A stretch of 29,889 bases of DNA from Clostridia bacterium (GCA_017381395.1 JAFOCH010000095.1:1-29889); one strand, 5' to 3'; numbered from the stretch's first letter, positions 821-20,232 are shown. A program made the numbers and translations. Notes: generated from the letters alone by a model not told the origin.

Positions 821-831
821 GGAGAAGGATT

Positions 832-3755: not shown

Positions 3756-3762
3756 GTATATT

Positions 3763-4088: not shown

Positions 4089-4354
4089 CACCCAACCCCG
4101 TCTCTTTCCACTTGTTTCGTGGTCAGGGGCGGGGTCAAAAGTTGTTGCGAGCCCTGAAAACGTGTTGAAATAAGGGCTTTTTGCACAAAGGGGTTAGTTC
4201 TCCAAAACCGTGTGCCGTGGGGCGCGTCGGTGAGCGCCGCAAAAAGCGGATTGAGCGAGCCGAAAGCGGGTGCCGCGGTCGAAATTCGCCGAGCGAAAGG
4301 GAGGATGAGCGAATTTCGGGCACCGCAAACGGGCGAGTCCTTCTGCCCCTGCCA
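4089..4354 (+). repeat. 266-bp direct repeat copy A (putative att junction: left arm + tRNA-Trp 3' half with insert)
   Basis: Aligns without gaps to 19840-20105 with 17 mismatches (manual count). Contains TCGTGGTCAGGGGCGGGGTCAAAA. Confidence 0.95.
4199..4354 (+). pseudogene. 3' half of tRNA-Trp(CCA), T-loop interrupted by a 112-nt insert (4222-4333)
   Basis: T-CTCCAAA-ACCGT-GTGCC-GTGGG [insert] CGAGT-CCTTC-TGCCCCT-G-CCA matches canonical positions 31-76 with anticodon CCA at 4202-4204. There is no D-arm or 5' anticodon stem. Confidence 0.85.
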
Positions 4355-4355
4355 T

Positions 4356-4395
4356 GAAAACACCGTAATTGTGATATCACAATTACGGTGCTTTC
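4356..4395 (+). terminator. Perfect hairpin directly after the tRNA CCA end
   Basis: CACCGTAATTGTGA-TA-TCACAATTACGGTG. Shares the AAAACACCG...CGGTG frame with the hairpins at ~6614 and ~20108. Confidence 0.6.
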
Positions 4396-4396
4396 A

Positions 4397-4563
4397 GCTA
4401 TATTCGCCTTCGGCGAGCTATATTGGCTGCGCCAGTTATATTTGCTTCGCAAGTGATATTGGGCTTTGCCCAGTTTTGGAGGCGAATATAATATCACTGC
4501 TGCGCAGCAGCAATATAACTTTCACGCAGTGAAAATATCACTCCGGCAAAGCCGGAATATAAC
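4397..4563. repeat. Branched palindromic (REP/BIME-like) array
   Basis: Four G(C/T)(T/G)ATATT octamers (4397, 4417, 4435, 4453), each followed by a short GC hairpin. Four inverted AATAT(C/A)AC octamers (4490, 4512, 4534, 4556) are separated by hairpins. Confidence 0.8.
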
Positions 4564-4567
4564 TTTA

Positions 4568-4603
4568 AATGCCCAGCCAGGATTGTTTTCCCGGTTGGGC
4601 ATT
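4568..4603. terminator. Hairpin, possible terminator for the minus-strand genes
   Basis: AATGCCCAGCC-N14-GGTTGGGCATT. Confidence 0.5.
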
Positions 4604-4720
4604 CTGCGTTTTAAGACCCGTTTTCCATAACAAATCGTTAGAATTATGGGGGTATCGGGTTTGTGAGGTAATCATTAGAATTGTGGGTAATCGTTGGATT
4701 TATGAGAAACAATATCACAA

Positions 4721-4742
4721 ACACACAGAACCGTCCCCTGTG
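4721..4742 (+). repeat. 22-bp inverted repeat, left copy
   Basis: ACACACAGAACCGTCCCCTGTG; its reverse complement matches 6459-6480 at 21/22. It is itself a hairpin (ACACAG/CTGTGT). Confidence 0.85.
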
Positions 4743-4784
4743 TTCTTGCCGCTGTTTTGCTGCGTTCCGGTTTATATAACCTTA

Positions 4785-5438
4785 TTATCTGCCAATCATC
4801 TTTTTATATTTGGCTTCATTCTCTGAGGAGTATCTTAAAAGCAATTCCGTATCACTTCTTTTTTGCAATTCCACAATAGCACTTTTTAGGATGGCATCGT
4901 ATCTTCGGTTATGGCATTCGATTCCTGAATAGCTAATGATTCCGTCGTTTTTTGTACCAAGTTTAATGGATGCATAACCCTTATAGGTTGAAGTATAGAT
5001 CCAATAAATTTCATTGCACGGTATTGGCAATCTCTTAAAGTTTTTGGGGAACAGGTATTTATCCGACAATATTGCCTTATCTCCGAACTCAACTACTTTG
5101 CTGGTCTCTAAGTCAAAGATCATTTCTCTTATTGTATCGGTTCTTTCAAGCTCTTTTATTCTTTTAAACAATTTGATGATGCGTGGCAATCTGATTAATG
5201 CATAAAGGCCAGGATATACGCAAAGGAAAGCAACAGAACCCAATACTATATACAGCCAATAAATTAACAGGGACTCTTCGCCGGTAAAGCCCATAGCAAC
5301 AAGTATGGCACAGATTAAGAGCATGGTAGCTAACGTTACCAGCATAAAAACGGACACAATTTTACCACGTATGATTTTTGCTTTGAATTTTCTTACTTTT
5401 TTATTTAGTTCTTTACTCGTGATCTCAGTTTTATTCAT
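4785..5438 (-). CDS. Hypothetical membrane protein (2 N-terminal TMs + soluble domain; DUF6709-like by appearance)
   Basis: 217-aa ORF with RBS GGAG before the ATG, two hydrophobic segments, and 15 nt spacing from the upstream gene. The family call is by eye only. Confidence 0.75.
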   Translation of the reverse strand: MNKTEITSKELNKKVRKFKAKIIRGKIVSVFMLVTLATMLLICAILVAMGFTGEESLLIYWLYIVLGSVAFLCVYPGLYALIRLPRIIKLFKRIKELERTDTIREMIFDLETSKVVEFGDKAILSDKYLFPKNFKRLPIPCNEIYWIYTSTYKGYASIKLGTKNDGIISYSGIECHNRRYDAILKSAIVELQKRSDTELLLRYSSENEAKYKKMIGR

Positions 5439-5453
5439 AAGGTTTCTCCACTA

Positions 5454-6263
5454 TTATTTCTTGCTAAGCTGGCATTCTATTTCTATCCCTGCTTCTGTGT
5501 TTATCCTTTTGATGTACCGGAGCATCCTTTTGCACGGCATAAGATTATACGTTAGGATTGCTAAGTTAAGATAATCCGGGTCGTTTTTTATCGCCTCGTC
5601 TATATGGTTTTTCTTTATGTATTTTTTAACATCAAGAAAAGGACAGATCATTTTCATTAAAAGCAGCGGAATTGCAATGATAAGAAGCGCAATGATCGTT
5701 ACTTTGTTCCACATTTTTTGAATGATGGAAAAGGCAATATACATCGCTATAATACTACCAGGTCCAGGTCCATCCAGAAAACGCACAAAGCTATTCGGTC
5801 TGTAATTATCAATAATTTCTTTTATCGTGAAACCTTTTGTTGACTTTTTCTTCGCTTTTTTCTCAGGTGCTATTGATTTTACGCTGGGATCTACTGAAAC
5901 AGTCTTAACAGTAAATACGATCAGATCGCATTTATCCTCATCTGTTTTTTTGAAAATCTTTTCGTTTTCTTCGATATTATTGGGAACAAGAACCGCAATA
6001 TTCTTGCCTAATTCTTTTATATAAACATTGTTGATTGTACTTTCTTTCGTTTTTTTCGAAACAACTGCATCAAATTCTACATATAAACTACGCTTGTTCT
6101 CATCAAAAAATTCATTTGTAGATTGTTTTACAACTTCAAGATCATCACGACTGTTATCAACACGCTTACCGGCATCTTGTGATATCGGACAGCCACAGTG
6201 TACACACGCATTTGCTCTATCGGATATTTCTCTGCCACATTCCTCACATTTAATTAAAGCCAT
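5454..6263 (-). CDS. Zinc-ribbon domain membrane protein
   Basis: N-terminus MALIKCEECGREISDRANACVHCGCPI, RBS GGAGG, two TM segments in the C-terminal third. Confidence 0.85.
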   Translation of the reverse strand: MALIKCEECGREISDRANACVHCGCPISQDAGKRVDNSRDDLEVVKQSTNEFFDENKRSLYVEFDAVVSKKTKESTINNVYIKELGKNIAVLVPNNIEENEKIFKKTDEDKCDLIVFTVKTVSVDPSVKSIAPEKKAKKKSTKGFTIKEIIDNYRPNSFVRFLDGPGPGSIIAMYIAFSIIQKMWNKVTIIALLIIAIPLLLMKMICPFLDVKKYIKKNHIDEAIKNDPDYLNLAILTYNLMPCKRMLRYIKRINTEAGIEIECQLSKK

Positions 6264-6301
6264 TTTATACCTCCCAATCGAGAATAATGATTAACATAAA
6301 A

Positions 6302-6330
6302 ATTATACCATACGGTTGTGGGTTTTTCAA
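6302..6330 (-). promoter_or_regulatory. Sigma-A promoter for 6263->4785
   Basis: Minus strand TTGAAA-N17-TATAAT with TGn extension. Confidence 0.7.
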
Positions 6331-6392
6331 CAGTTTTAATAGCCCAGGAGCCGATTCTGTTTGCGCTCTTGTATAAACCCTTTAACGATTCC

Positions 6393-6452
6393 CTAAAGGA
6401 ATGCTATGAAACAGAGTATTGGCTAGAACGGATGCAAAAAGCAGATCTATTA
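6393..6452 (+). pseudogene. Fragment of a four-helix-bundle (TIGR02436/'S23' IVS, Avd-like fold) gene
   Basis: Reads LKECYETEYWLERMQKADLL, resembling the family motif (A)LKExxETxYWLELL. Both termini are missing. Confidence 0.55.
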
Positions 6453-6458
6453 CTGCAG

Positions 6459-6480
6459 CACAGGGGACGGTTCTATGTGT
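6459..6480 (-). repeat. 22-bp inverted repeat, right copy
   Basis: CACAGGGGACGGTTCTATGTGT, the inverse of 4721-4742 with 1 mismatch. Confidence 0.85.
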
Positions 6481-6501
6481 TAATTGGCATAAAAACAACC
6501 A

Positions 6502-6582
6502 TGACCCCCTCTGTGAAAATTCCGACCCTCTCTCGGTCTAAAAACGACCCCCCTTAACCGGAAAAACGACCCCCGGGGGTCG
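6502..6582 (-). repeat. Cluster of GACCC(C) direct repeats ending in palindrome GACCCCCGGGGGTC
   Basis: TGACCCCC, CGACCCTC, AAAAACGACCCCCC and AAAAACGACCCCCGGGGGTCG at roughly 22-nt spacing. Confidence 0.6.
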
Positions 6583-6611
6583 CAGCATTTCAAAATTAGG
6601 GTTCTTACACA

Positions 6612-6772
6612 CAAAAAACACCGAAAAACCTTGATATATAAGGGTTTTCGGTGTTTTTTTTGTTTTTCACTCTCTTACAAAAATTCACAGTCAAAACTAC
6701 CTCTTTTCACTTGATTTTACCTATTTCGTGGTCAAATCGTGGTCAAAATCAGGGTCAAAAAGTGGTCAAAAA
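6612..6772 (+). repeat. Putative right (P'-type) att arm with four GTGGTCAAA-like direct repeats
   Basis: Homologous to 20106-20232 (AAAACACCGAAAAACnTTGATATAT...TTTCGGTG...CTTACA...TTTCG(T/C)GGTCAAATCG). Repeats: GTGGTCAAA, GTGGTCAAAA, AGGGTCAAAA, GTGGTCAAAA. Confidence 0.75.
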
Positions 6773-6934
6773 TGAGCGGAAAACACGCGGGAAATGAGTA
6801 AGACGGCGACATGGTTTTCCCATTTCTCGTTTATTTTATTTATTTAATAAAAGTTACGAAAATTCTGCACAACTCGCATTTTTTTAATATTCCGAAAAGC
6901 AAAATATAAAACTCTAATAAATGATGTTTATATA

Positions 6935-6963
6935 TTGCCAAATTTGTCGAAACGTTGTATAAT
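6935..6963 (+). promoter_or_regulatory. Sigma-A promoter of the pilus locus
   Basis: TTGCCA-N17-TATAAT. Confidence 0.6.
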
Positions 6964-7165
6964 ACAATGTTATAGGGGGAACTATGCCCATTAGTTAAAA
7001 AACAATAAAAGACAGATACAGAAGGTCAGTGCAGTGCGCTTTTGTTAATCGCACAAATAAGGGATAATGGAGACCTTTTAAATCAAAAAAACAAAAATAC
7101 ATATGCGAAACTATTCGTAATGTATAAAGAGTTTATTTGATATAAGCTTTATAGAAGGTTTTGCA

Positions 7166-7726
7166 GTGTTTAGGGGATTAAGAATAGTGGAAAAAGATTC
7201 AAAGAAAAAGTACAGTTTTTTTAAATCGGCTTTATTTAGGTCGACCTTAAAAATAGTTATTATCGTAATAGTAACCGCGTCGCTTCTTTTGAATTTGTTT
7301 ACCTTTATTATGCCGGTTGTCAAGTACTATGGTACGAGCATGTCGCCCATGTTAGAGGACGGACAAATTTTGATTGTAAATAAAATATCGGACATTGAGA
7401 GCGGAGATATCATAGCGTTCTATTATAATAATAAGGTATTGGTGCGGCGAGTTGTCGCAACGGGAAACGAGCAAGTATCCATTGATGTTTTCGGCACGGT
7501 TTCGGTTAACGGAAAGGAATTGGACGAGCCATACGTTGAAAACAAGACATTGGGACAGTGTAATTTGAATTTTCCGTACAATATACCTTCGGGAGCGTTT
7601 TTCGTTCTGGGGGATAACAGGGATTCTGCAATGGACAGTCGGTTAGAAGAAATAGGTGTAGTAACCGATGACCGACTGATTGGAAAGGTAGTTTTTTCGA
7701 TAAAACCGTTTGGGTTAATAGATTAA
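7166..7726 (+). CDS. Pilus-associated signal peptidase I-like (S26) protein, probably catalytically impaired
   Basis: GTG start with GAAGG RBS, one TM, GTSMSP (catalytic Ser), GDIIAF, FFVLGDNRDSAMDSR. The box D Lys position reads VLVRRV instead of xxKRV. Confidence 0.9.
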   Translation: MFRGLRIVEKDSKKKYSFFKSALFRSTLKIVIIVIVTASLLLNLFTFIMPVVKYYGTSMSPMLEDGQILIVNKISDIESGDIIAFYYNNKVLVRRVVATGNEQVSIDVFGTVSVNGKELDEPYVENKTLGQCNLNFPYNIPSGAFFVLGDNRDSAMDSRLEEIGVVTDDRLIGKVVFSIKPFGLID

Positions 7727-7754
7727 AATTTTTTAAGTAGAGAGTGGAACAACA

Positions 7755-10700
7755 ATGAATGCTTTTGAGTGCAAAAAGCTTAATATAAAAAGCATTATAT
7801 TTGTCGCAATCATGGCGGTACTCGGTGTCGCAGCTTGCGTTTTGTTGTTCTGCCTTAATATCACTCCTGCCGTAGCTTTAGAACAGCAAATTCGTTGCGG
7901 TATTGAGGAGCATACACACACGGATAGTTGCTATGACGGCGATTTTTTGATATGCGAAAAACCTGCGCATACTCACGACGGTAACTGTTATATCGTTCCG
8001 CTGAAGGAAAACGATATTAACGAAATATTGACACTGCTTGGGAATAGCGATGCCCGTTCACTTGAATATGTTATAACCGATACCATGTCATCGGCGCTTA
8101 CCTTTAATTCTAATATAAATGCAGTAGAAATTGTTGATGCTCAACCGATTGCTTTTTCGCAAAACACGGTAGCGGAGCTTAATAATACGATTTCTCATGA
8201 AGAAGAGCTTCCGGATATAGTGTTTAACGAGAACATCAATAACATAAACACCATAGAGTTGGATGACGTAACAACCAATGAAATACAGAGCGGCGCAGGA
8301 GCAACTACATTAAGCGTTGGTGAAGAACCGGTCACTTCAAACTATACAGCGAATTTTTATATCTACTTAGATGGAAAATGGAACTGCATTGGCTCGTTGC
8401 CTTTCACATCTGTAAAAAATAGCACCCGATATAACGGCACAATCGCAACCTCAGATATTTTAAATCTTGTAAATAACGCCCTTGATGCTAATTTTGTTTA
8501 CAATTCATTTGATATTGCCGTATCCACTTCGCAAAACAGCGGATATTCAAAAAGCAATATAGGAATGAATTCGGTAACAACGACAATAGCATACAGACAA
8601 TCAAGCACAAATATCAGAAGTGTAAGGCATGTTAGGTTGATACCTGAAGGCGGGTCTGCAACCAGCACGGCGTTTGCGTTTTATACAGTAAAATATGTTT
8701 ATCCCGATGGAAACACAGTAACGAACTATGTGCGTTCGGGTACGACCATAACGCTTCCGTCCGGTAATTACGAGTGGTCGGACGGCAATAATACCTATTC
8801 TTCCGGCGAGGCAGTAACAATAACATCCACGACCACGTTCGAAGCAATAACGTTAGGTCCGCCTACTTATGTTAATATCAATTATGACGTAGATTTCCCG
8901 GTTGTAAGCGGGGTTACGGTTGGTGCGACTCCTACGATTGCAGGGTACGCCACAACAACGCATAGGGATGAATATACCGAGAATTCGGAAGCAACCGTTC
9001 GCAACGTTTCTCAGCAATCGGTGCAAGGAACGGTAAATAATAATGGTACGGGACTGACTCGTGTAATTCAGTTTAAAGGATGGAGGGTTGGCACCACCGA
9101 TGTCATTCTTCAACCAAATACCAAGCTGATATGGGAGGAGCTTGTTCAGTATTCTAACAATACGACAAGCATAAAGTTGACTGCTGTTTGGGAGTATAGT
9201 CCCTTGCAAACAGCAACCTTCTTTATCCGTTTTGACTCGGTTGCGGTTGATACCGAGGGAAATATTACCGGACAGGATTCCAATAAATATACTAAACAAA
9301 TTTTTGCAGCTTATGTAGGCGGAGTTGACACCTCCCTCGGCACGACCCAGCTTCAAAGAAATTTTGGAATTGCAGATACCACGTCGGACAATTCTTATGG
9401 CGCAGACCAAGAGATTCGGGCACTTTACGGAGAGCGTACAGACGGTGTTTGGTTGAGCGCCTTTCCGACGGATGAATTTGTTTTTGAGGAATTGGTTGAG
9501 TATGCACAAACCGGGTATCTATCGGTGGACGGTGTAGCCGTAAAAGCCGAAGATTTGAACAGCAAGGAATATGCTATTCGTTGGTATGTATTTAAAAGTC
9601 AGGACGATGCGTGGCATATTGATGGAAAATTGGTTAAGAAGGTCGGTCTAATTCACGTTTATAAGACGTTTGCAGGTAATAAAGAGCTTGTTGCCGAGGC
9701 AAAAACCGACTTTTATATCGATGCAATCGATGTTTCCACCGGCGAAAATACGGTTTTGAATTTGAATAATTATACCACCCGCGATTTAGCAACCGATACT
9801 TATATGTGGGAAATCACCGATGTAGAATACGGAGAGTATTGGGAAATAACCGAGCATCCTCATCAGTTTGATGACGAGCAGGTTAATTTCAGCGTTTATT
9901 CTGAGTTTACGGTAATGGACGCTCATGGCGAACAGTCCATTACAGGCACAGGAACCTCGCTTACGGTTAGCGGCATGACCTATGCGCTCGATGAGGGTGT
10001 AGATGAGGTACTGCGAGCACAATTTACAAACATATATAATCGCAACGATTCGATTATTATTAAAAAGCAGGATAGTCTAACCGGGGTTTCTATTGGAGGA
10101 GCCGTATTCCAATTATCACAAAACGGACAAGCGCTTAAATTCACCTACAATGCCGAAAAAGATCGTTATCAATATGATGCCGAAAATGGAAGCGTGGTAA
10201 ACCTTTCAGGCAATGCAAACGGTTATTACGAAATCTGTATTGACCATTTCAGTTATGACCTTGGCCCGATAGTTATTAAAGAAATAACGGCACCAACGGG
10301 ATATACGTCCATCGGCAATATAGAAATCGGCTATACCGATGACGGAGAAACGGTTGGCATTCTTAGCGGAAACAGTGAATTGATTAAATTTATTAGCGGT
10401 GTATTGATTGTCGGAAACAGCACCGATTCATCCTCGGTTACTGTTAAAAAAGAGTGGGAGTGCGACCAAACCGAGTGGCAGGATGTTACCGTTCAATTAT
10501 TAGCGAATGGTAAGCTTGTTACTACTGTTATTGCAGGAGTTGAGCCGCAGGCAATTCTGAACAGCGACAATAATTGGCAACACACTTGGAAAAATCTTCC
10601 TGTTTATGTCAATGGTGTAAAGATTAACTGGTCTGTAAAAGAAACAATGATTGGTACGGAATCCGCAAAGGCGGACGGTTCGTTTATCAACTGGCTGGTG

Positions 10701-11240
10701 TCCTATGAATTGCCGATTGTATCGACCGATGGGGACGGTAATGAAAACACCTTGCTCACCATCATAAATACTACTAAACGAGTAATGCTTCGTTTGACCA
10801 AAACTGACCTTGGCAAGTCAACGCAACTTTCGGGAGCAACCTTTGTTTTGGAAGGGGTGGATGCTCACGGCAACCTTTTGCCAACCGAAGTTGCAAAAAC
10901 AGCTACAACCGGCGCAACAGGAACGTTGGTGTTTGACAACTTAAAGTGTGGCGTCAGGTATCGCCTTACCGAAACGGAAGCTCCAATCGGATACCTAAAA
11001 ACAAATGAATATATTTATTTCGTAATCAATGAAGACGGAACCGTTTCGGTGGAAGAAAGCTTCTTTGCCGAAGCCGGGTCCACGGCCTACAACATTGTTG
11101 TTCGAAATGGTATAGCAGTTGACCTTCCCGACTCAGGGGGCATGGGAACAGGTATGTTTTATGCACTTGGCTTGTTGCTTATGGCGGCAACCCTGTGCAT
11201 TTACATAAGATATCTCCGTAAAAGGAGGTGTCACAATTAA
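7755..11240 (+). CDS. Large sortase-anchored pilus tip adhesin/ancillary pilin (Cna-B and SpaA-type domains)
   Basis: Signal peptide, VKKEW..W..VTVQLLANG (Cna-B), E-box YRLTETEAPIGY, then LPDSG + TM + RKRR. Confidence 0.9.
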   Translation: MNAFECKKLNIKSIIFVAIMAVLGVAACVLLFCLNITPAVALEQQIRCGIEEHTHTDSCYDGDFLICEKPAHTHDGNCYIVPLKENDINEILTLLGNSDARSLEYVITDTMSSALTFNSNINAVEIVDAQPIAFSQNTVAELNNTISHEEELPDIVFNENINNINTIELDDVTTNEIQSGAGATTLSVGEEPVTSNYTANFYIYLDGKWNCIGSLPFTSVKNSTRYNGTIATSDILNLVNNALDANFVYNSFDIAVSTSQNSGYSKSNIGMNSVTTTIAYRQSSTNIRSVRHVRLIPEGGSATSTAFAFYTVKYVYPDGNTVTNYVRSGTTITLPSGNYEWSDGNNTYSSGEAVTITSTTTFEAITLGPPTYVNINYDVDFPVVSGVTVGATPTIAGYATTTHRDEYTENSEATVRNVSQQSVQGTVNNNGTGLTRVIQFKGWRVGTTDVILQPNTKLIWEELVQYSNNTTSIKLTAVWEYSPLQTATFFIRFDSVAVDTEGNITGQDSNKYTKQIFAAYVGGVDTSLGTTQLQRNFGIADTTSDNSYGADQEIRALYGERTDGVWLSAFPTDEFVFEELVEYAQTGYLSVDGVAVKAEDLNSKEYAIRWYVFKSQDDAWHIDGKLVKKVGLIHVYKTFAGNKELVAEAKTDFYIDAIDVSTGENTVLNLNNYTTRDLATDTYMWEITDVEYGEYWEITEHPHQFDDEQVNFSVYSEFTVMDAHGEQSITGTGTSLTVSGMTYALDEGVDEVLRAQFTNIYNRNDSIIIKKQDSLTGVSIGGAVFQLSQNGQALKFTYNAEKDRYQYDAENGSVVNLSGNANGYYEICIDHFSYDLGPIVIKEITAPTGYTSIGNIEIGYTDDGETVGILSGNSELIKFISGVLIVGNSTDSSSVTVKKEWECDQTEWQDVTVQLLANGKLVTTVIAGVEPQAILNSDNNWQHTWKNLPVYVNGVKINWSVKETMIGTESAKADGSFINWLVSYELPIVSTDGDGNENTLLTIINTTKRVMLRLTKTDLGKSTQLSGATFVLEGVDAHGNLLPTEVAKTATTGATGTLVFDNLKCGVRYRLTETEAPIGYLKTNEYIYFVINEDGTVSVEESFFAEAGSTAYNIVVRNGIAVDLPDSGGMGTGMFYALGLLLMAATLCIYIRYLRKRRCHN

Positions 11241-11289
11241 TACGCTTTCAATAAATTTGAAAAAATATAACAGAAAAGGAGTTAAAACA

Positions 11290-13002: not shown

Positions 13003-13106
13003 AAGAAATAATTGTTTTTGACGGAATGATGCTTATTTTAGTTGACCTAAAAAGCTGTTTCTTTTTCTAAATTTTAAATAAGATAAATTAAAGGAGGGAA
13101 AAATCG

Positions 13107-13967
13107 ATGAAGAAGCATTTACCGACAATTATCATGGCGGTTATATTTCTCTGCGGTCTTTCCCTCTTTCTTTATCCTACCGTCAGCAATTTATATAATG
13201 AACATTTAAATAATAAGCTTATTGGCGAATATGAGGAGACCTTTGCTGCCATCCCTTCGGAAGAATTTAATAAAGCGATGCAGGATGCAGTTGATTTTAA
13301 TAAAAATCGCACAAATGCGGACAAATTGCAAGAGCTTGGTTTAACCTATGAAGAAGTACTTAATATTGCAGATAACGGAGTGATGGGATACATTGAGATT
13401 CCTAAAATCAGTGTTTCGCTCGTTATATATCACTCTACGGAAGAAACTGCTTTGCAGAGGGGGATTGGACATCTACCCGACTCCCATTTACCTATCGGGG
13501 GCAGTAGCACCCATTGTGTACTCGCCGGTCATACTGGACTGCCTTCGGCGAAATTGCTTACCAATATCGATCACTTGAAAGTAGGCGATCGATTCTATAT
13601 TCATGTGTTAAACGAGGTTCTGGAATACCAAATTGATGATATTTCTGTTGTTGAGCCCCACGAGGCGTCACGGCTCAATGTAATCAGCGGTAAGGACTGT
13701 GTTACCTTGGTTACCTGCACGCCCTATGGAGTGAATTCTCACCGTTTGCTTGTTCGCGGTGTTCGCGTTGATGACTTGGATATGTCTGCTAATAAGGACG
13801 GAGTTACAAACGAGATTTTAAATATAGGTATGAAATACCTGCTAACATTTTCGTTGGTTGGGCTTTGTATTATCTTTGTAGTGATAGTGAAATTGCGCTC
13901 AATTTATAAAAAGAGAAGGGCGCAAGGCAAAAAAGGAGACGAGGTAACAGATGAAATTAACCATTAA
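13107..13967 (+). CDS. srtC: Class C (pilin) sortase
   Basis: N-terminal TM, LAGHTG, TLVTCTPYGVNSHRLLVRG, C-terminal TM. Confidence 0.95.
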   Translation: MKKHLPTIIMAVIFLCGLSLFLYPTVSNLYNEHLNNKLIGEYEETFAAIPSEEFNKAMQDAVDFNKNRTNADKLQELGLTYEEVLNIADNGVMGYIEIPKISVSLVIYHSTEETALQRGIGHLPDSHLPIGGSSTHCVLAGHTGLPSAKLLTNIDHLKVGDRFYIHVLNEVLEYQIDDISVVEPHEASRLNVISGKDCVTLVTCTPYGVNSHRLLVRGVRVDDLDMSANKDGVTNEILNIGMKYLLTFSLVGLCIIFVVIVKLRSIYKKRRAQGKKGDEVTDEINH

Positions 13968-14838
13968 AAACATAGTTATCTTTATTTTATCGGCAGTGTT
14001 TGTTATTGCCTTGGCTTTGCCTTGTCTTGCGGCTACGGAAAGCGGAAGCATAACCGTAACTTTAGAGGATAATAGTAAAAATAAAATTAACGGTATAACG
14101 GTACATCTTTGTCAAATAGCGGAGCTTAATAATTCAGGATATTACCCCACCTCGTCGTTTGAAAGCTCCGGCATATCCATTTCGGGCATTGTGAATGGTC
14201 CTGACGACCTGACTGCAAAAGCTGTTGTGGATTATATTGAGGACAATGAGATAGACTCGCTGTCATCCGTGTCAGAAAACGGAAAGGTGTCTTTTTCAAA
14301 TTTGGATTTGGGCATTTGGGTTGTGTTTTGCGAGCAGGATGGCAAATATATCTTTAATCCGTATATTGTTTTTTTGCCCTACGAATCGGAAGGTAAACTA
14401 TTCTACGACGTAGCATCCATACCAAAGACGGAGGATAGCAAACCTGATGAAATCAGCATTTATGTTATAAAAAGATGGGACGACAATAATAATGCTGCAA
14501 AAAAGCGTCCCGAGTCGGTTGTTGTTGAGCTGTTGAACGGGAATAAAGCGGTGTCTTCGGTTGAGCTTAGCGAGTCAAATGGATGGACTCATACGTTTAC
14601 TTGTGTTGCAAAGAATGGCAAGTATTCTGTCAGAGAAAAAAGCGTAAAGGACTATAAAGCGACATATAGCGGGGATGTAGCTAATGGCTTTGCGGTAACA
14701 AATTCATACGTTGGAGAAAAGCTTCCGCAAACGGGTCAGTATTGGTGGCCGATTGTTATTATGGCTATTGCCGGCTTCTGCTTCGTTTTACTCGGCATCT
14801 ATGAGATTGGAGTAAAGAAACATGACAAGAAGAAGTAA
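13951..14838 (+). CDS. Minor pilin with Cna-B domain
   Basis: Signal peptide, VIKRWDD....RPESVVVELL (Cna-B), then LPQTG + TM + KK. Confidence 0.9.
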   Translation: MKLTIKNIVIFILSAVFVIALALPCLAATESGSITVTLEDNSKNKINGITVHLCQIAELNNSGYYPTSSFESSGISISGIVNGPDDLTAKAVVDYIEDNEIDSLSSVSENGKVSFSNLDLGIWVVFCEQDGKYIFNPYIVFLPYESEGKLFYDVASIPKTEDSKPDEISIYVIKRWDDNNNAAKKRPESVVVELLNGNKAVSSVELSESNGWTHTFTCVAKNGKYSVREKSVKDYKATYSGDVANGFAVTNSYVGEKLPQTGQYWWPIVIMAIAGFCFVLLGIYEIGVKKHDKKK

Positions 14839-15394
14839 AGGCATCATCCTTCTGATTGTTGGATGTGTTCTGCTTCTAAGCTCAGGCGGTTGGTACATTT
14901 ATAACGTTCAGGAGGACAAAAACGCAGGGCGTCAAGCAACTGAAATACTCGGTAAATTAGACAACGAGCAAAATATAATTGATAATAGCGATACCGCTCC
15001 TGTGATTACCGTAGATGGTGATGCTTTCTGTGGCAAGGTTGTTATTGAAAAGCTGGGCGTGGAGCTTCCGGTGTATGATGAATGGAATTATACTCGATTA
15101 AGGTCAGCACCCTGTCGTTATATGGGAAGCGTTGCTACGGATGATATCATTATCGCGGCGCATAATTATAAGAGTCATTTCGGTTCGCTTAACAAGTTGC
15201 AGACGGGCGATGAAATTCGATTTATAGACGCTTATGGAACAGCGCACACCTATTCGGTATGTGAGCTTGTCACTTTAAACGGAACAGATATTTCAGAGAT
15301 GCAGTCAAGTGGATGGGATTTTACGCTTTTCACCTGCACAAAGGGCGGCAAGCAGCGCGTTACCGTGAGATGTAATAGAACCCAAAACCGTTAA
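14822..15394 (+). CDS. Second, shorter sortase (no C-terminal TM)
   Basis: N-terminal TM, IAAHNY, TLFTCT....QRVTVRC catalytic His/Cys/Arg. Overlaps the minor pilin stop. Confidence 0.92.
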   Translation: MTRRSKGIILLIVGCVLLLSSGGWYIYNVQEDKNAGRQATEILGKLDNEQNIIDNSDTAPVITVDGDAFCGKVVIEKLGVELPVYDEWNYTRLRSAPCRYMGSVATDDIIIAAHNYKSHFGSLNKLQTGDEIRFIDAYGTAHTYSVCELVTLNGTDISEMQSSGWDFTLFTCTKGGKQRVTVRCNRTQNR

Positions 15395-15447
15395 AGACAA
15401 AGAACAAAGCAAATAATTATAGTTGCTTCTTTCAATTAAATCAATAA

Positions 15448-15481: not shown

Positions 15482-15553
15482 AATTTTATTTATATTTCGG
15501 GTAAATCTTCTATATTTATTTTATTTAGATGGATGTAAGCGTTAATCTGTCGC

Positions 15554-18500
15554 TTATGCCTTTCCGAGCAGGAGCATTTGGAGCAATACGATGTCGGCGC
15601 TGTCGATAATTTCGTTGCCGTTGTAGTCGGTATAAACGAAATTGTCATTGCCGACAGAATCTATATCCAACAAATACTGTTGCATCACAAGCAGGTCGCT
15701 GGTATCTATCTTTTTATCGAGGTTTACGTCACCAACATTATAAACTGTGGCTATTTCGGTTTCGCCGACGTATTCGGTGCCGTTAAAGGTGGCATAAACC
15801 GTTGCCTTGATATCGGTGTTAACATGAGTGTCGTCGATTTTTGCATTGAATACGTAGTATTCGTCAACCTTTTCATAATCGGTAATTGTGCTTTGCGCTC
15901 CGTTAATATCGATTACCAGATAGGGAGCATCATAACCGCTATTCTCGATTTGTTCAGCGCTTAGTTTGAAATCAACCGATTTTTCGCCATGCACCTTGGC
16001 GGTTGATTCATAAATTCGCAGATAATCAAATTCACCGCTTTTGACAGTATCGCCGCAGTTTTCACACCATATTTCATATTTACCGCTGAGTATTTCTGTC
16101 GGTTGTGAATAGACGGATAACCTATCCGAAGACGTATGAACAAGCGAATAGTTTGCTCCGCTTAAAATAGCTGCATAAAACACCTCTACGTTTTCGCATG
16201 AGGAAACAACCGTCGCATTTTGACACAGTATAAAGGCGTTTTCGGCGGCAGAGGTGATGCTGTCGGGTACCGTAATATCGGTAACGTCGTCATCGCACGA
16301 AAAATATTCGTCAATGCTGGTTACGGCTATGCCGTCGATTTCGGTGGGGATTTCTATACTTGTGTTTTCGCCATAATATCCCGTAACGCATACACTGTCG
16401 TTATCGTTATAAATATATCCCCAGTCACCCTTTGCACGAGTGTAAGCCGCAACAATATAACCTGCGCCAACATAACTGATTTGAGGTGTATAGCCGATGC
16501 TCAAAACACCGCTTTCGTCGGTTTGCGCCTGAACTAAATATAGGAGATTGCCCGATTCAAGCGGATTTTCGACCGTTTTCGATTTAACCGCATAGAAATT
16601 GTACAGATATTTGGGTTTGAGACCCGTGACCGAAACTCCGCTATCGTCAACCGTGACGTTGTCATCGTTTGCGAATGAATGTGTGCTATACGATGCTAAC
16701 GAGGTTGCTCCCGGCAAAGTGATTCTTTCGGGCATATCTTTGTTTGCAGTTGAGCCGAGACCAAGCTGTCCGTATTTATTATATCCCCAGGTGTATAGCT
16801 TGTGGTCCTTTGTAATTGCCGCACTGTGGCTGTTGCCGAGACTGACTGACGCCACGTTTTCATAAATAATCACGGGAACATATTGAACTTGTGTTGAGCC
16901 GTTTCCTATTTTTCCTGCGGTATTACTTCCCCAAAGGTACAGTTCGCCATTTTTTGTAACTGCGGAAGCGAAATAGCCACCGAGACTAACTGATGCTATG
17001 CTGCTCATAATGTGTGTAGGAGAGTTTCTTTGGGTAGTGGTGCCGTCACCAAGCTGACCGAGATAATTATCTCCCCAAGTATAAAGTTTACCATCCTTTG
17101 TAACTGCGGCGCTGTGATAATCACCCATACTTATAGAAGCAACGTTACTCATAATATATTTAGGAGTAGTTCTTTTGGTAGTAGTTCCGTCGCCGAGCTG
17201 ACCGCTGCTATTAAGTCCCCATATATATAATTTACCGTCTTTTTTAATAGCGGCGCTGTGATAAAGACCAAGACTAACTGATGCAACGTTACTCATCAAA
17301 AATTTCGGCTTTGTGCTTCTGGTGGTAGTGCCGTCGCCAAGTTGTCCGTTGATATTATATCCCCAAACGTACAGATTGCCGTCCTTTGTAATAGCGGCGC
17401 TATGCTCGAAACCGAGCTCAACTGATGCAACGTTGCTCATAACGTGTCTTGGCGAGTATCTGTTATATCTTGTGCCGTCTCCGACCTGTCCTTCGTCATT
17501 TCGTCCCCAAGTATAAAGTTTGCCATCCTTTGTAATAGCGGCACTGTGGTAATCACCCATATTGATTGAGGCAACGTTGTCCATAATGTATGTAGGAATA
17601 TTTCGTTGTGTAGTAGTGCCGTCGCCAAGCTGGCCGTAATCGTTGGCACCCCATGTGTATAGCTTGCCGTCTCGAGTTATAGCGGCACTGTGGTCGGTGC
17701 CGAGACTTACTGCGGCAAATTCATATTGAGCGTTAATGAGGGAACTTTCACTTTCTATTGAAATGTCAATTTCTCTGGCTTTGTCCTTGATTTTATAGGT
17801 TTTTTCAAGAGAGATATATCCCTTTTTGGTTACCGTAACGGTGTATTTTCCGTTTTTGAGATATACCGCTTCGATTTTTCCGTCCTTGTCGGTGGTTTTT
17901 GTAATATCCTCGCTGCTTGACGAAATTTTTACCGAAGCACCTTGGACAACATCTTTGCCTTCTAATACGTTGACGATAAAGGAGTAGCTGATATATGGGC
18001 AGGTGCCGAAGCCGAACTCATCATGGTCGAATGAATAATAAAAATCACGCAACTTAATCTTTTTGTCCATGACAGTAAGCTTAAAGGTGAGTTTTTTGAG
18101 ATTTAGGAATTTTGCTTCGAATGACAATGATGCTCTTGCCGAAAAGTCGCCGTCAACGCAGCTTTTACATTCGTGCTTTTCGCTTGTTGGCTTGTCGGAA
18201 GTATAGCGGAGAGTGCCTTTTATTTCTGCGCCGAATCGGCCTGACATTTTGGCTTGTGCTACTTTTTTGCTGACTATTGCAATCGACGGTTCGAGAGAAA
18301 TGCCGATAAATACAGTAGCTTCTACCTTAAACTGACATTCAAATTTAGGCGTCGACGAGGTGTTTTTTATCTTTTTTGTATCTGTCGATGCCTTAAATCC
18401 AAATTGTCCTTTCAGTTCACCGCTTACACTAACCTCACCGCTTAATTCTAAAATAAACGAGGGGGTAAACGAGATATATACGCCGGGGCAAACAGCAATT

Positions 18501-19678
18501 GCTATATAACCCAGCGGAATTTTTGCAGCAATCGAGCCACTGACCTTTATTTCTACTCCGAAGGAATATTCTAATTTCACCTCAACAGTCGAGTATTTCA
18601 GACTCACGTACACGTCCATTGAAGCTTTTATTGTAAACATGGCTTCGCCGTTGAGTGTAACCTTTTTCGAATCGGTCGAAATGAATTCTTTTTCGGCAAA
18701 GGTGTATGATGCGGATATACTTTTTGACTTGCTTATATCAGCCAGCGCAAAGGTTGACGGCCCCTCGAAAGCACCGTTATATTCAATGCCTTCTTCGAGC
18801 CCGGAAGGGTCAATTTCTGTGTTTTCAAAGGTGGTGCCACCCTCGATTCGAACATAGTCGAATACCTCGTCGAGCGATGTTTCATCACCAACGATGGTGG
18901 CGGTTGTGCCGTCGATTGAGATGCTTTTTACCTTTACGATTATGAGGTCGCCATTAGCCGCCTCAAAGGCAAGTATTTCACCTTCGGTCAGCGATAAAAT
19001 GTCACTGTCCGCATTTTCAAAAACGTATGTATCGGAAGCAGCATCCTCGGTTACCTGAATCGAGTTCGAATCATCGCTGACGATGTTTACTTCGTCATTA
19101 TAAACCGCGTAGTTGGTTGTATCACTGTCGTCAAAGTTAACCACTCGGTCCTGGTCAAAGTCGGCGGATGTCTTTGATAAAAACTCCTGCATTTCCTTTG
19201 TATATAACGAATTTATGTATGCGGTGCAAAGGGGTTTCAGGTCCTCGGTTTTGACCAAATATGCTCCTGCAACAAAGTATTGCGGCATATCCTCGTCGGC
19301 TATTTCGATTTCGGCACTGCTTTCGTCGGGCGAAACCTGGGTCGAGCCGTAGGCAAGTATATTTTCGCCCAGCTCATCGTACAAGCAAACCACGAGCGTA
19401 CACGAATCAAGTGCTTCATACTCGACGGTTACAAAGTTGTCCTCAACGTTTATCGAAAATACGTTATAGCCGTTGCCGTCGAGCTGCTTTTGCATCTCGT
19501 CGCCTATTGTTTGTGTTAATAAATCGCCGAAGGAATTGGTCGATTCGATGGTCAAATCGCTGTCACCGGTGGTGGTTGAATCTGCACCGGCAGTTTCCTC
19601 GGCATGAGCGTTTATCGGCATGATAAATGTGGTTGCCAACAATGTTAATATTAGGATGATGGAAATTATTTTTTTCAT
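15554..19678 (-). CDS. Secreted 1374-aa protein: acidic N-terminal domains, carboxypeptidase-regulatory-like Ig domain, 7 RCC1 repeats, short LRR cap, C-terminal dockerin
   Basis: Signal peptide MKKIISIILILTLLATTFIMPINAHA. Seven 48-aa repeats (HSAAITKDGKLYTWGxNxxGQLGDG) at ~16712-17710. Duplicated Ca-binding loops GDVNLDKKIDTSD...DYNGNEIIDSAD at the C-terminus. Confidence 0.93.
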   Translation of the reverse strand: MKKIISIILILTLLATTFIMPINAHAEETAGADSTTTGDSDLTIESTNSFGDLLTQTIGDEMQKQLDGNGYNVFSINVEDNFVTVEYEALDSCTLVVCLYDELGENILAYGSTQVSPDESSAEIEIADEDMPQYFVAGAYLVKTEDLKPLCTAYINSLYTKEMQEFLSKTSADFDQDRVVNFDDSDTTNYAVYNDEVNIVSDDSNSIQVTEDAASDTYVFENADSDILSLTEGEILAFEAANGDLIIVKVKSISIDGTTATIVGDETSLDEVFDYVRIEGGTTFENTEIDPSGLEEGIEYNGAFEGPSTFALADISKSKSISASYTFAEKEFISTDSKKVTLNGEAMFTIKASMDVYVSLKYSTVEVKLEYSFGVEIKVSGSIAAKIPLGYIAIAVCPGVYISFTPSFILELSGEVSVSGELKGQFGFKASTDTKKIKNTSSTPKFECQFKVEATVFIGISLEPSIAIVSKKVAQAKMSGRFGAEIKGTLRYTSDKPTSEKHECKSCVDGDFSARASLSFEAKFLNLKKLTFKLTVMDKKIKLRDFYYSFDHDEFGFGTCPYISYSFIVNVLEGKDVVQGASVKISSSSEDITKTTDKDGKIEAVYLKNGKYTVTVTKKGYISLEKTYKIKDKAREIDISIESESSLINAQYEFAAVSLGTDHSAAITRDGKLYTWGANDYGQLGDGTTTQRNIPTYIMDNVASINMGDYHSAAITKDGKLYTWGRNDEGQVGDGTRYNRYSPRHVMSNVASVELGFEHSAAITKDGNLYVWGYNINGQLGDGTTTRSTKPKFLMSNVASVSLGLYHSAAIKKDGKLYIWGLNSSGQLGDGTTTKRTTPKYIMSNVASISMGDYHSAAVTKDGKLYTWGDNYLGQLGDGTTTQRNSPTHIMSSIASVSLGGYFASAVTKNGELYLWGSNTAGKIGNGSTQVQYVPVIIYENVASVSLGNSHSAAITKDHKLYTWGYNKYGQLGLGSTANKDMPERITLPGATSLASYSTHSFANDDNVTVDDSGVSVTGLKPKYLYNFYAVKSKTVENPLESGNLLYLVQAQTDESGVLSIGYTPQISYVGAGYIVAAYTRAKGDWGYIYNDNDSVCVTGYYGENTSIEIPTEIDGIAVTSIDEYFSCDDDVTDITVPDSITSAAENAFILCQNATVVSSCENVEVFYAAILSGANYSLVHTSSDRLSVYSQPTEILSGKYEIWCENCGDTVKSGEFDYLRIYESTAKVHGEKSVDFKLSAEQIENSGYDAPYLVIDINGAQSTITDYEKVDEYYVFNAKIDDTHVNTDIKATVYATFNGTEYVGETEIATVYNVGDVNLDKKIDTSDLLVMQQYLLDIDSVGNDNFVYTDYNGNEIIDSADIVLLQMLLLGKA

Positions 19679-19839
19679 TTTTTAACATCCCTCATTTTAA
19701 ATTGTTATACAATAATATGTTAACAAAAGGTTCACAATATTTCAAGTGTTATTAGGAATTACAATATTTGGTGTGTGGTTGTTTAAATAAGGATTATTAT
19801 ATATTTTTAATGAATTGTCGTGCGACAGTAATCTTATAC

Positions 19840-20105
19840 CACCCAACCCCGTCTCTTTCCACATTTTTCGTGGTCAGGGGCGGGGTCAAAAGATGTTGCG
19901 AGCCCTGAAAAGGCGATGAAATAAGGACTTTTTGCACAAAGGGGTTAGTTCTCCAAAACCGTGTGCCGAGGGGCGCGTTGGCGAGCGCCGCGAAAAGCGG
20001 ATTGAGCGAGGCAAAAGCGGGTGCCGCGGTAGAAATTCGCCGAGCGAAAGGGAGAAAAAGCGAATTTCGGGCACCGCAAACGGGCGAGTCCTTCTGCCCC
20101 TGCCA
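19840..20105 (+). repeat. 266-bp direct repeat copy B (putative att junction)
   Basis: See copy A. Confidence 0.95.
19950..20105 (+). pseudogene. 3' half of tRNA-Trp(CCA), T-loop interrupted by a 112-nt insert (19973-20084)
   Basis: Anticodon CCA at 19953-19955. The T-stem GAGGG/CCTTC pairs fully (one G.U); 3' acceptor strand TGCCCCT-G-CCA. Confidence 0.85.
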
Positions 20106-20232
20106 AAGAAAACACCGAAAAACATTGATATATGAGGACTTTCGGTGTTTTTTGTTTCCCGATTGCTTACAGGAATTTACAGCCGAAACTGTCTTTTCTC
20201 ACCTGTTTTTTTGCTGTTTCGCGGTCAAATCG
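20106..20232 (+). repeat. Putative right att arm, homologous to 6612-6745
   Basis: Hairpin AAAACACCGAAA...TTTCGGTGTTTT, then CTTACA...TTTCGCGGTCAAATCG. Confidence 0.75.

What the first reader, a model, noticed from the sequence alone, without database searches (positions are those of the whole stretch)
4089..20232. Tandem array of integrase-free cargo islands separated by tRNA-Trp att junctions
Seen: [arm with GTGGTCA/GGGGTCAAAA]-[tRNA-Trp from position 31 to CCA]-[AAAACACCG..CGGTG hairpin] occurs twice, and a further right arm with four GTGGTCAAA-like repeats lies at 6612-6772. tRNA similarity begins exactly at the anticodon loop. Established: many tyrosine integrases cross over in the anticodon loop, duplicate the tRNA 3' half, and bind short directly repeated arm sites. 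No integrase, excisionase, relaxase or phage gene is present between or around the junctions. Inference: stacked cassettes (signalling unit, pilus+dockerin unit, signalling+kinase unit) mobilised in trans, forming an integron-like surface-trait array at tRNA-Trp. Prediction: an intact plus-strand tRNA-Trp and/or an integrase lies upstream of base 1, and 6612-20105 can be lost as a unit.
Basis: partly seen in the sequence, partly recalled or inferred. Interest (0 to 1): 0.8.

Follow-up and report, generated by a model that had tools for sequence, protein, structure and literature searches.

The report
Decayed island array at tRNA-Trp
The two 266-base repeats are most likely leftover attachment-site junctions of gene islands that insert into the tryptophan tRNA gene, one of which carried a pilus operon and has lost its integrase. 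This is a known way for bacterial genomes to stack foreign genes, not a new integron-like system.

Summary
A 266-nt direct repeat (94% identical) lies at 4089-4354 and 19840-20105. Each copy is a 110-nt arm, tRNA-Trp positions 31-53, a 112-nt GC-rich insert replacing T54-T55, then tRNA positions 56-76 and a hairpin. The genome's real tRNA-Trp is on another contig (C139). It is followed by the same hairpin, five GTGGTCAAA-type repeats and a tyrosine integrase. In a sister species (G005), tRNA-Trp is followed directly by window 6615-15543 (98.65% identical, the whole pilus operon) and then the same integrase. In the window only the last 17 integrase codons survive (15490-15543). Distant relatives of this integrase also sit beside tRNA-Trp.

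My reading is a decayed tandem accretion of tRNA-Trp islands, of the CIME or tycheposon-remnant type. The variation actually seen breaks at 6775/15443 and at 15543, not at the repeats. No excision joint was found.

The 112-nt insert belongs to an uncatalogued structured element found in 55 of 151 genomes of the order. It nearly always sits in the elbow loops of tRNA fragments next to live tRNA genes. Earlier notes of this scan describe similar tRNA-linked elements on other DNA. Integron likeness and trans-mobilisation are not supported.

The parts
1..3698 (+). Three-gene module: two Zn-ribbon membrane proteins and a BspA-LRR/OmpA protein. It is paralogous to 20456-24188.
   Evidence: Pfam. Repeats D5, D6 and D8 show 67-79% nt identity at about 20.4 kb spacing.
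3753..4015 (+). IS200-like end plus an N-terminal TnpA fragment. It is a high-copy repeat in the genus.
   Evidence: Read directly from the sequence. Many genus matches to 3753-3890. Metagenome depth rises to 261 here. An intact IS200 Y1_Tnp sits beside the G001 copies.
4089..4354 (+). Junction J1. It consists of the arm 4089-4198 (hairpin AACCCCGTCTCT..GTGG..AGGGGCGGGGT, motifs GTGGTCA and GGGGTCAAAA), tRNA-Trp positions 31-53 at 4199-4221, a GC-rich structured insert at 4222-4333, and tRNA positions 56-76 with CCA at 4334-4354.
   Evidence: The covariance model R1 scores 119.8 bits here.
4355..4396 (.). Perfect 21-nt-arm palindrome or terminator variant. It shares the CACCG/CGGTG base of the tRNA-Trp terminator.
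   Evidence: Inverted repeat I10; alignment A2.
4395..4571 (.). Array of small, differing hairpins joined by ATAT-type spacers. It resembles Gut-1 RNA but scores below threshold, and it is a dispersed repeat in the genus.
   Evidence: Rfam Gut-1 at 37.7 and 30.1 bits against a gathering score of 50. Ten or more genus copies at 73-87% identity.
4720..6481 (-). Segment holding two ORFs (4785-5438 and 5454-6263; membrane and Zn-ribbon proteins). It is bounded by 23-nt inverted repeats that are 96% complementary.
   Evidence: Inverted repeat I3; Pfam. One metagenome contig skips 4745-6456, and the inverted repeats join other DNA elsewhere.
6610..6774 (+). tRNA-Trp-type terminator (6616-6659) plus an arm with four GTGGTCAAA-like repeats at roughly 11-nt spacing. 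This is the integrase-proximal (attL-side, P'-type) arm.
   Evidence: 91% identical to C139:4323-4483 just behind the real tRNA-Trp. 92-98% identical to G005:C9 just behind its tRNA-Trp.
6775..15443 (+). Pilus cargo: S26 signal peptidase, a 1161-aa tip pilin (SpaA/Cna_B), an LPXTG backbone pilin, a sortase, a Cna_B minor pilin and a second sortase.
   Evidence: Pfam. 98.65% identity over 8954 bp to G005:C9. Absent between the same flanks in C139 and in a contig of run X3, which joins 6761 to 15444.
15490..15543 (-). Remnant of the tyrosine integrase gene: the last 17 codons plus the stop. Its terminator lies at about 15450-15482.
   Evidence: Translation gives INAYIHLNKINIEDLPEI* against the G005 integrase C-terminus. 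97% nt identity to G005 and 96% to C139 up to 15543. Metagenome contigs continue from 15543 into the integrase.
15554..19678 (-). 1374-aa protein with 7 RCC1 repeats and a type I dockerin. It occupies the place of the integrase and the rest of the island.
   Evidence: Pfam. Its 83% homologue in G001:C6 lies beside tRNA-Pro(cgg). Absent from run X3, which does hold the pilus unit.
19840..20105 (+). Junction J2. It consists of the arm 19840-19949, tRNA-Trp positions 31-53 at 19950-19972, the GC-rich insert at 19973-20084, and tRNA positions 56-76 at 20085-20105.
   Evidence: R1 scores 114.2 bits.
20106..20232 (+). tRNA-Trp-type terminator (20110-20153) plus a decayed arm in which only GCGGTCAAATCGG remains.
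   Evidence: 78-83% identical to 6615-6739, C139:4299-4446 and G005:C9:18133-18280.
20456..27160 (+). Right flank: Zn-ribbon proteins, an OmpA-domain protein, a Ser/Thr kinase with a double Zn-ribbon, and PP2C.
   Evidence: Pfam.

Best explanation
The window is a decayed tandem accretion of genomic islands that integrate into tRNA-Trp through one clade of tyrosine integrases.

How the system works (inferred from the anatomy):
- The integrase crosses over at or near the anticodon loop.
- The incoming element rebuilds the tRNA 3' half and brings its own terminator and a row of GTGGTCAAA arm-type sites next to its integrase.
- The displaced tRNA 3' half ends up at the far end of the element, behind the other arm (GTGGTCA..GGGGTCAAAA).

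What the parts of the window are:
- J1 and J2 are such far-end (attR-type) junctions.
- Together with the terminator-plus-arm blocks at 6610-6774 and 20106-20232, they form the hybrid junctions expected between stacked elements.
- The middle element carried the pilus operon between its arm sites and its integrase.
- Its integrase and everything up to the RCC1-dockerin gene were later deleted or replaced. What remains is an integrase-less relic with att-like ends, that is, a CIME-type remnant.

Origin of the insert in the junctions (inferred):
- The displaced tRNA fragment in both junctions is fused to a native tRNA-linked GC-rich structured element.
- In other genera this element sits just behind tRNA-Trp.
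- The fusion most simply arose by deletion between two direct copies of tRNA positions 44-53.

What is shown and what is inferred:
- Shown: the repeat anatomy, the homologies, the integrase remnant, the presence/absence variants, and the tRNA-Trp linkage of the integrase clade.
- Inferred: the crossover position, that the GTGGTCAAA repeats are integrase arm sites, the order of events, and the physical link between contig C139 and this contig.
For: 1. The repeat anatomy and the start of tRNA-Trp identity at position 31 are confirmed.
2. C139 carries tRNA-Met, tRNA-Trp, the terminator, five GTGGTCAAA-type repeats and the 3' end of a PF00589 integrase on the opposite strand.
3. G005:C9 has the same layout, with window 6615-15543 (98.65% identical, 8954 bp) between the arm repeats and a 396-aa integrase. 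An Xis-like ORF, a RepL-like gene, an AbiEii TA pair, DUF3800 and HsdM follow.
4. The neighbouring core DNA of the two species is only about 91% identical. This argues that the pilus unit was exchanged recently.
5. The window keeps the last 17 integrase codons up to a sharp break at 15543. Metagenome contigs run from 15543 into the integrase.
6. G006:C72 has the same arm joined to an uninterrupted tRNA-Trp 31-76, then the native terminator, then an inverted tRNA 44-59 fragment. This is the predicted precursor of J1/J2.
7. G040, G022 and G001 have the GC-rich unit directly behind tRNA-Trp.
8. Five of the eight other matches to this integrase in these searches at E <= 1e-40 (31-45% identity; G285, G024, G078, G317, G003) lie convergent beside tRNA-Trp. 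G003 has its own direct repeats (TTTATAACCAA twice) in the same place.
9. An unrelated metagenome contig has tRNA-Trp, a terminator and three GTGGTCAAA repeats.
10. The motif clusters only at these loci in the MAG.
11. The concept of tandem accretion plus decay to CIMEs is described in PMC5704250, section 2.3. Stacked elements separated by partial tRNAs, with fragmented integrases, are described in bioRxiv 10.1101/2020.12.28.424599.
Against: - No single element was seen with both the integrase and the J-type arm.
- G005 (93% complete) has no second tRNA-Trp fragment or J arm.
- G006 has the arm but only a 27%-identical integrase homologue.
- Linkage of C139 to this contig is unknown. The MAG is 74% complete with 166 contigs, and no contig-end overlaps were found.
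- All gain/loss breakpoints seen lie away from the tRNA cores.
- The tRNA tail plus GC element is a standard unit of a family that occurs behind many tRNAs without any integrase. The tail of J1/J2 therefore need not come from site-specific recombination.
- The integrase N-terminus gave no significant arm-binding Pfam domain.
Confidence: 0.65

Rival explanations
1. J1 and J2 are not integrase junctions. They are local versions of the tRNA-linked GC-rich structured unit, a small RNA gene or miniature mobile element that copies tRNA ends in the manner of RtT. They were duplicated together with about 110 nt of upstream sequence. The neighbouring islands are then coincidental.
For: The insert belongs to a family present in 55 of 151 genomes of the order, at 1-14 copies each. 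In 20 of 27 loci fetched it lies within about 400 nt of a co-oriented tRNA gene. It is always embedded in D-loop or T-loop positions of tRNA fragments. Covariation is strong: 96% of cells paired and 22 of 26 pairs with double changes. Units with a tRNA-Trp tail lie behind tRNA-Trp in G040, G022 and G001 with no integrase motif nearby.
Against: G006 carries the same arm joined to an intact tRNA-Trp 31-76 without the GC element. The other tRNA-tail (T-loop) units looked at start at about tRNA position 40-44 with a foldback (the D-loop units instead carry the tRNA's first ~19 nt), whereas J1/J2 start at position 31, the anticodon loop. The arm shares GTGGTCA and GGGGTCAAA with the integrase-proximal repeats. 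Both junctions are followed, J2 directly and J1 2.2 kb further on, by the terminator plus arm block that sits between tRNA-Trp and the integrase.
Confidence: 0.2
2. One reading: a working, integron-like array of integrase-free cassettes that a trans-acting tRNA-Trp integrase still excises, reshuffles or transfers.
For: A cognate integrase gene exists in the MAG on C139. The arm core motif and the anticodon-loop core are identical in J1 and J2; of the 17 differences, 7 lie elsewhere in the arm, 1 in the tRNA part and 9 in the insert. J2 is an intact arm-core-terminator-arm hybrid.
Against: No 4354-to-20106 joint and no circle junction appear in three DNA metagenome assemblies (contigs only). 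Recombination between the live tRNA-Trp and J1 or J2 at the anticodon loop would give the only tRNA-Trp found in the MAG a T-loop disrupted by 112 nt. The arm at 20156-20232 has decayed. No IntI, attI or attC features are present.
Confidence: 0.1
3. The arrangement is an assembly artefact. The repeats caused mis-joins between strains, so the 'array' does not exist on one molecule.
For: The source is a fragmented MAG. C139 and the window share three repeat blocks. Independent Logan contigs break at every repeat.
Against: Logan contigs of runs X1 and X2 bridge 4089, 6615, 15543 and 19840 individually (records 2, 4, 6, 22, 23). Run X3, from another study, bridges 6615. J1 and J2 differ at 17 positions, which lets an assembler tell them apart.
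Confidence: 0.05

Closest known systems
Tandem accretion of integrative elements and cis-mobilizable elements (CIMEs), as in the ICESt1/ICESt3 family of Streptococcus thermophilus and IME/ICE tandems at tRNA-Lys in S. agalactiae (review PMC5704250, section 2.3)
   Same: Site-specific integration into the 3' part of a gene or tRNA. Elements are stacked and separated by hybrid att sites. Integration genes are lost while att sites are kept.
   Different: No conjugation or mobilisation genes were seen here. The far-end att fragment is fused to a 112-nt structured element. Excision was not shown. Linkage of the intact tRNA and integrase to this contig is not established.
Tycheposon islands of Prochlorococcus (bioRxiv 10.1101/2020.12.28.424599)
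   Same: tRNA-targeting tyrosine recombinase elements with cargo. New arrivals push older ones into the island. Partial tRNAs and fragmented integrases are left behind.
   Different: The host is a rumen or gut Clostridia MAG. The integrase clade is different. No tycheposon replication module was seen. The cargo is a sortase pilus, and the G005 island also carries defence genes.
Integrons
   Same: Only the idea of an array of cargo units separated by recombination sites.
   Different: There is no IntI-type integrase next to an attI site, no attC hairpins and no promoterless single-gene cassettes. The junctions are tRNA fragments with arm-type repeats.
RtT repeats behind tyrT in E. coli (Rfam RF00391), for the GC-rich insert only. 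This is a lead from an earlier scan note plus my own recollection.
   Same: Structured repeat units that lie behind a tRNA gene and end in a copy of that tRNA's 3' tail.
   Different: No Rfam match of any kind covers 4222-4333, even at E<=10. This family also occurs in D-loops of 5' tRNA fragments upstream of tRNA genes, and it caps the truncated tRNA fragment with a palindrome.

Membership tests
tRNA-integrating tyrosine-recombinase genomic island | A tyrosine integrase gene lies next to the target tRNA gene. | tested here: met
   Met on C139 and G005:C9. In the window itself only a 17-codon remnant remains at 15490-15543.
tRNA-integrating tyrosine-recombinase genomic island | A direct repeat of the tRNA 3' segment bounds the island (attL at the intact tRNA, attR at a displaced fragment). 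| tested here: inconclusive
   Two displaced fragments that start at tRNA position 31 lie in direct orientation. The intact tRNA is on another contig with unknown linkage.
tRNA-integrating tyrosine-recombinase genomic island | The integrase clade shows consistent target specificity. | tested here: met
   The integrase on C139 and G005, plus 5 of the 8 other matches at E <= 1e-40 (31-45% identical), lie beside tRNA-Trp.
tRNA-integrating tyrosine-recombinase genomic island | Presence/absence polymorphism has breakpoints at the att cores. | tested here: not met
   The breakpoints seen are 6615, 6775/15443, 15543 and 19697. None lies at a J1 or J2 core.
tRNA-integrating tyrosine-recombinase genomic island | Excision products exist (circular attP junction, empty attB). 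| tested here: inconclusive
   None was found in the Logan contigs of three DNA runs. Contigs drop rare variants.
CIME (cis-mobilizable element) | att sites are retained while integration and transfer genes are lost. | tested here: met
   Arm blocks and J junctions are present, the integrase is reduced to 54 nt, and no xis, relaxase or T4SS domains were found.
CIME (cis-mobilizable element) | Mobilisation in cis by an element integrated in tandem. | not testable with these tools
   This needs culture or read-level junction assays.
Integron | An IntI integrase with an adjacent attI site and Pc promoter. | tested here: not met
   There are only three PF00589 matches in the MAG, none in the window. 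There is no integrase Pfam hit in the window.
Integron | Cassettes are bounded by attC hairpin sites. | tested here: not met
   The junctions are tRNA fragments with arm repeats. The cargo is multi-gene operons of up to 8.7 kb.
RtT RNA (RF00391), for the insert | A match to the Rfam covariance model. | tested here: not met
   cmscan at gathering threshold and at E<=10 gave no hit over 4089-4354.

The most novel reading that the evidence does not exclude
The GC-rich structured element inside J1 and J2 may be a self-propagating miniature element, or an RNA gene, that copies tRNA ends and lodges in the elbow loops of tRNA fragments. By fusing to displaced tRNA halves it would create or 'lock' att-like junctions, so that it shapes where islands pile up. 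On this reading the 266-nt unit would be a composite of two mobile systems and not a plain att scar.
Probability: 0.15. Interest if true: 0.75.

Novelty: new member of a known kind. Interest (0 to 1): 0.4.

Why it matters
The locus shows how a rumen or gut Clostridia lineage acquires surface traits. A complete sortase-pilus operon travels as cargo of a tRNA-Trp island between species and then becomes fixed when the integrase is lost. That is useful for annotating islands in fragmented MAGs, but the mechanism is a known one.

The more unusual by-product is the uncatalogued, strongly covarying 117-nt element. It is tied to tRNA genes in about a third of the genomes of the order, and it deserves a study of its own.

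Tried and rejected
- ARAGORN finds no tRNA in the window. The fragments are not genes.
- Rfam at gathering threshold and at E<=10 gives nothing over the repeats.
- I considered a full tRNA-like RNA, with AGGGGC at 4124 pairing with GCCCCT at the 3' end. I rejected it because the G006 copy does not keep the pairing.
- I considered that 4369-6614 is an insertion into the terminator's left arm, since AAAACACCG occurs at both edges. I left this open because 4355-4396 is itself a complete variant hairpin.
- I looked for synteny of the right flank with the G006 flank through PP2C and kinase genes. I rejected it because the PP2C proteins are only 24% identical.
- Searches for a complete element failed. 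The search for related loci with the integrase returned only G005 itself. The metagenome scan for the J arm returned nothing. The scan for the doubled GTGGTCAAA repeat returned mostly unrelated iteron-like arrays, plus one locus with tRNA-Trp.
- I looked for an attR in G005:C9 up to position 46999 and found none.
- I looked for contig-end overlaps linking C139 and C120 and found none.
- I looked for an arm-binding Pfam domain in the integrase N-terminus and found none that was significant.
- The RNA run X17 gave no usable coverage of the repeats.
Full report
**1. What is there**

The window is a whole contig (C120) of a 1.24-Mb, 74%-complete MAG. A 266-nt direct repeat lies at 4089-4354 (J1) and 19840-20105 (J2). 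The two copies differ at 17 positions, and there are no other full copies in the MAG.

ARAGORN finds no tRNA in the window. The genome's tRNA-Trp(cca) is on contig C139, at 4244-4319, behind tRNA-Met.

Alignment with that gene splits each repeat into four parts:
- a 110-nt arm holding an imperfect hairpin and GTGGTCAGGGGCGGGGTCAAAAG;
- tRNA-Trp positions 31-53, starting at the anticodon loop (TCTCCAAAACCG);
- a 112-nt GC-rich insert in place of T54-T55;
- tRNA positions 56-76, identical to the gene over 21 nt up to CCA.

A CACCG...CGGTG hairpin follows each copy. At 6610-6774 the same hairpin is followed by four GTGGTCAAA-like repeats. A decayed version follows J2 at 20106-20232. In the MAG, GTGGTCAAA clusters only here and on C139.

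**2. The integrase and the real attachment locus**

On C139 the tRNA-Trp is followed by three things: the terminator, five GTGGTCAAA-type repeats, and the 3' end of a PF00589 integrase on the opposite strand that runs off the contig.

A sister species, G005 (a goat-caecum Clostridia MAG by its record title), has tRNA-Met, tRNA-Trp, the terminator and six to seven repeats. These are followed by window 6615-15543 at 98.65% identity over 8954 bp, which is the entire pilus operon. Then comes the same integrase (396 aa; SAM-like plus catalytic domains). Behind it lie a weak Xis-like ORF, RHH, DUF3800, DUF6088/AbiEii, a RepL-like HTH and HsdM genes.

The DNA upstream of the tRNAs is only about 91% identical between the two species. 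The pilus unit is therefore unusually well conserved, which fits recent exchange.

C139 is the same structure without the pilus operon. Its arm repeats (equivalent to window 6615-6774) are followed, about 70 nt further on, by the equivalent of window 15444-15543 and then by the integrase. A contig of an unrelated metagenome, run X3, shows the same pilus-less joint from 6761 to 15444.

**3. The relic in the window**

Homology to the integrase gene stops abruptly at 15543. On the minus strand, 15490-15543 still encodes NAYIHLNKINIEDLPEI*, the integrase C-terminus with the catalytic tyrosine. In runs X1, X2 and X3, other contigs continue from 15543 into the integrase.

In the window the integrase is replaced by a 1374-aa RCC1-dockerin gene. 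Its 83% homologue in G001 lies beside tRNA-Pro(cgg). The gene is absent from X3, although X3 holds 4532-15461.

The window has no other integration, excision or transfer gene.

**4. Are J1 and J2 att junctions?**

Evidence for:
- G006:C72 has the same arm (about 85% identity) joined to an uninterrupted tRNA-Trp 31-76. A different, native-type terminator and an inverted tRNA 44-59 fragment follow.
- The start of identity at the anticodon loop is a common crossover position for tRNA-targeting tyrosine integrases. This is established knowledge, not tested here.
- The arm core motif is the best-conserved part of the arm in G000, G002 and G006.
- Both junctions are followed by the terminator-plus-arm block that lies between tRNA-Trp and the integrase, J2 directly and J1 2.2 kb further on.
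- The integrase clade is tRNA-Trp-linked. Five of the eight other matches at E <= 1e-40 (31-45% identical; G285, G024, G078, G317, G003) lie convergent beside tRNA-Trp. G003 has a different pair of direct repeats in the equivalent place.
- One unrelated metagenome contig has tRNA-Trp, a terminator and three GTGGTCAAA repeats.

Evidence against:
- I found no element with both the integrase and the J arm.
- G005 has no second tRNA-Trp fragment.
- G006 lacks a close integrase.
- Contig linkage is unknown.

**5. The GC-rich insert**

The insert is not specific to this locus. Eleven copies from six genomes align with covarying helices (A1). A covariance model (R1) finds it in 55 of 151 genomes sampled across the order, at 1-14 copies each and with E-values down to 1e-26. 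One further copy lies in this MAG at C47:4323-4439.

On 42 copies, 96% of cells pair and 22 of 26 pairs show changes on both sides, far above the slid and shuffled controls. The alignment was fitted to the model, which favours pairing.

In 20 of 27 loci fetched, a co-oriented tRNA gene lies within about 40-400 nt. Two layouts recur:
- Upstream of a live tRNA (Ser-cga, Pro-cgg, Leu): leader plus tRNA 1-19, the element in the D-loop, tRNA 20-31, and an inverted copy that makes a palindrome.
- Downstream of a live tRNA (Trp, Ser-gct, Met): an inverted tRNA piece of about positions 40-58, a direct 44-53, the element in the T-loop, and tRNA 56-76 with CCA and a terminator.

The tRNA-Trp version sits directly behind tRNA-Trp in G040, G022 and, twice in tandem, in G001.

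This suggests the origin of J1 and J2. An attR (arm plus tRNA 31-76 plus native terminator) stood next to the native GC unit, and a deletion between the two direct 44-53 copies fused them. G006 looks like the state before that deletion. This step is inference.

Rfam has no family for the element. Earlier notes of this scan describe comparable tRNA-end-copying structured elements on other DNA, one of them compared with RtT. I tested only that RtT's model does not match here.

**6. How it most likely works**

I read the region as accretion followed by decay. The sequence would be:
- Successive tRNA-Trp islands integrated at the live tRNA.
- Each pushed the older ones rightwards and left hybrid junctions of arm, displaced tRNA half, terminator and arm.
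- The pilus-bearing element then lost its integrase.

This is the route to CIMEs described for streptococcal ICE/IME tandems (PMC5704250). It also matches the stacked elements, partial tRNAs and fragmented integrases of tycheposon islands (bioRxiv 10.1101/2020.12.28.424599).

An integrase acting at the anticodon-loop core between the live tRNA-Trp and J1 or J2 would give the only tRNA-Trp found a disrupted T-loop. Such excisions should be selected against (inference). J1xJ2 recombination would be harmless, but it was not seen (a weak test).

**7. Verdict**

- The att-junction idea is the best reading, at about 0.65.
- The integron-like, trans-mobilised array is not supported.
- The predicted unit of loss is not the one observed.
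- As an island array this is a new member of a known kind.
- The embedded tRNA-linked structured element is the part that may be new. It should be judged under its own finding.

Noticed in passing
window 4222-4333 and 19973-20084; G000:C47:4323-4439; loci L035-L061: An uncatalogued structured element of about 117 nt, with core GCGGTCGAAA...TTTCGGGCACCGCAA. It is present in 55 of 151 genomes of the order. It is embedded in D-loop or T-loop positions of tRNA fragments next to live tRNA genes. The truncated tRNA fragment is capped by a palindrome. Covariation is strong and there is no Rfam match.
   Followed up: partly
window 4395-4571: An array of small hairpins with different stems joined by ATAT-type spacers that flip orientation. 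It gives sub-threshold Gut-1 RNA hits. Ten or more copies per genome occur in the genus at 73-87% identity.
   Followed up: partly
window 4720-4742 / 6459-6481: 23-nt inverted repeats, 96% complementary, bracket a 1.7-kb two-gene segment. One metagenome contig lacks the segment and keeps only the palindrome. The same arms join other DNA in metagenomes, as if genes sit in the loop of a dispersed palindromic repeat.
   Followed up: partly
window 3753-4015; L028 9727-10041 (G001:C1): IS200-family remnants or genes lie right next to the tRNA-Trp-derived units in two genomes. 3753-3890 is a high-copy repeat, with metagenome depth of about 260 against 15-20 elsewhere.
   Followed up: no
window 1-3698 versus 20456-24188: A three-gene module (Zn-ribbon membrane protein, Zn-ribbon protein, OmpA-domain protein) occurs twice at 67-79% nt identity. 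One copy is left of J1 and the other right of J2.
   Followed up: no
window 15554-19678; L027 4563-8716 (G001:C6): The RCC1-dockerin gene sits beside tRNA-Pro(cgg) in G001. In this MAG the tRNA-Pro(cgg) locus (C47) lacks it and the gene lies inside the tRNA-Trp array, which suggests relocation between tRNA-linked sites.
   Followed up: partly
window 21640-21873: Nine or more tandem 18-nt repeats (NVxPxx-type hexapeptide units) lie inside the Zn-ribbon protein gene 21545-22243.
   Followed up: no
L039 (G133:C12) 1380-1980: Two pseudo-copies of tRNA-Ser lie upstream of a live tRNA-Ser(cga). One carries the GC element and the other is a plain 1-38 fragment ending at the anticodon loop. The live gene has a different acceptor sequence, which hints at gene replacement.
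   Followed up: no
L084, L089 (metagenome contigs): Long 11-nt-period arrays of GTGGTCAAATC / GTGGTTAAATC repeats occur in unrelated environmental contigs and look like iterons.
   Followed up: no
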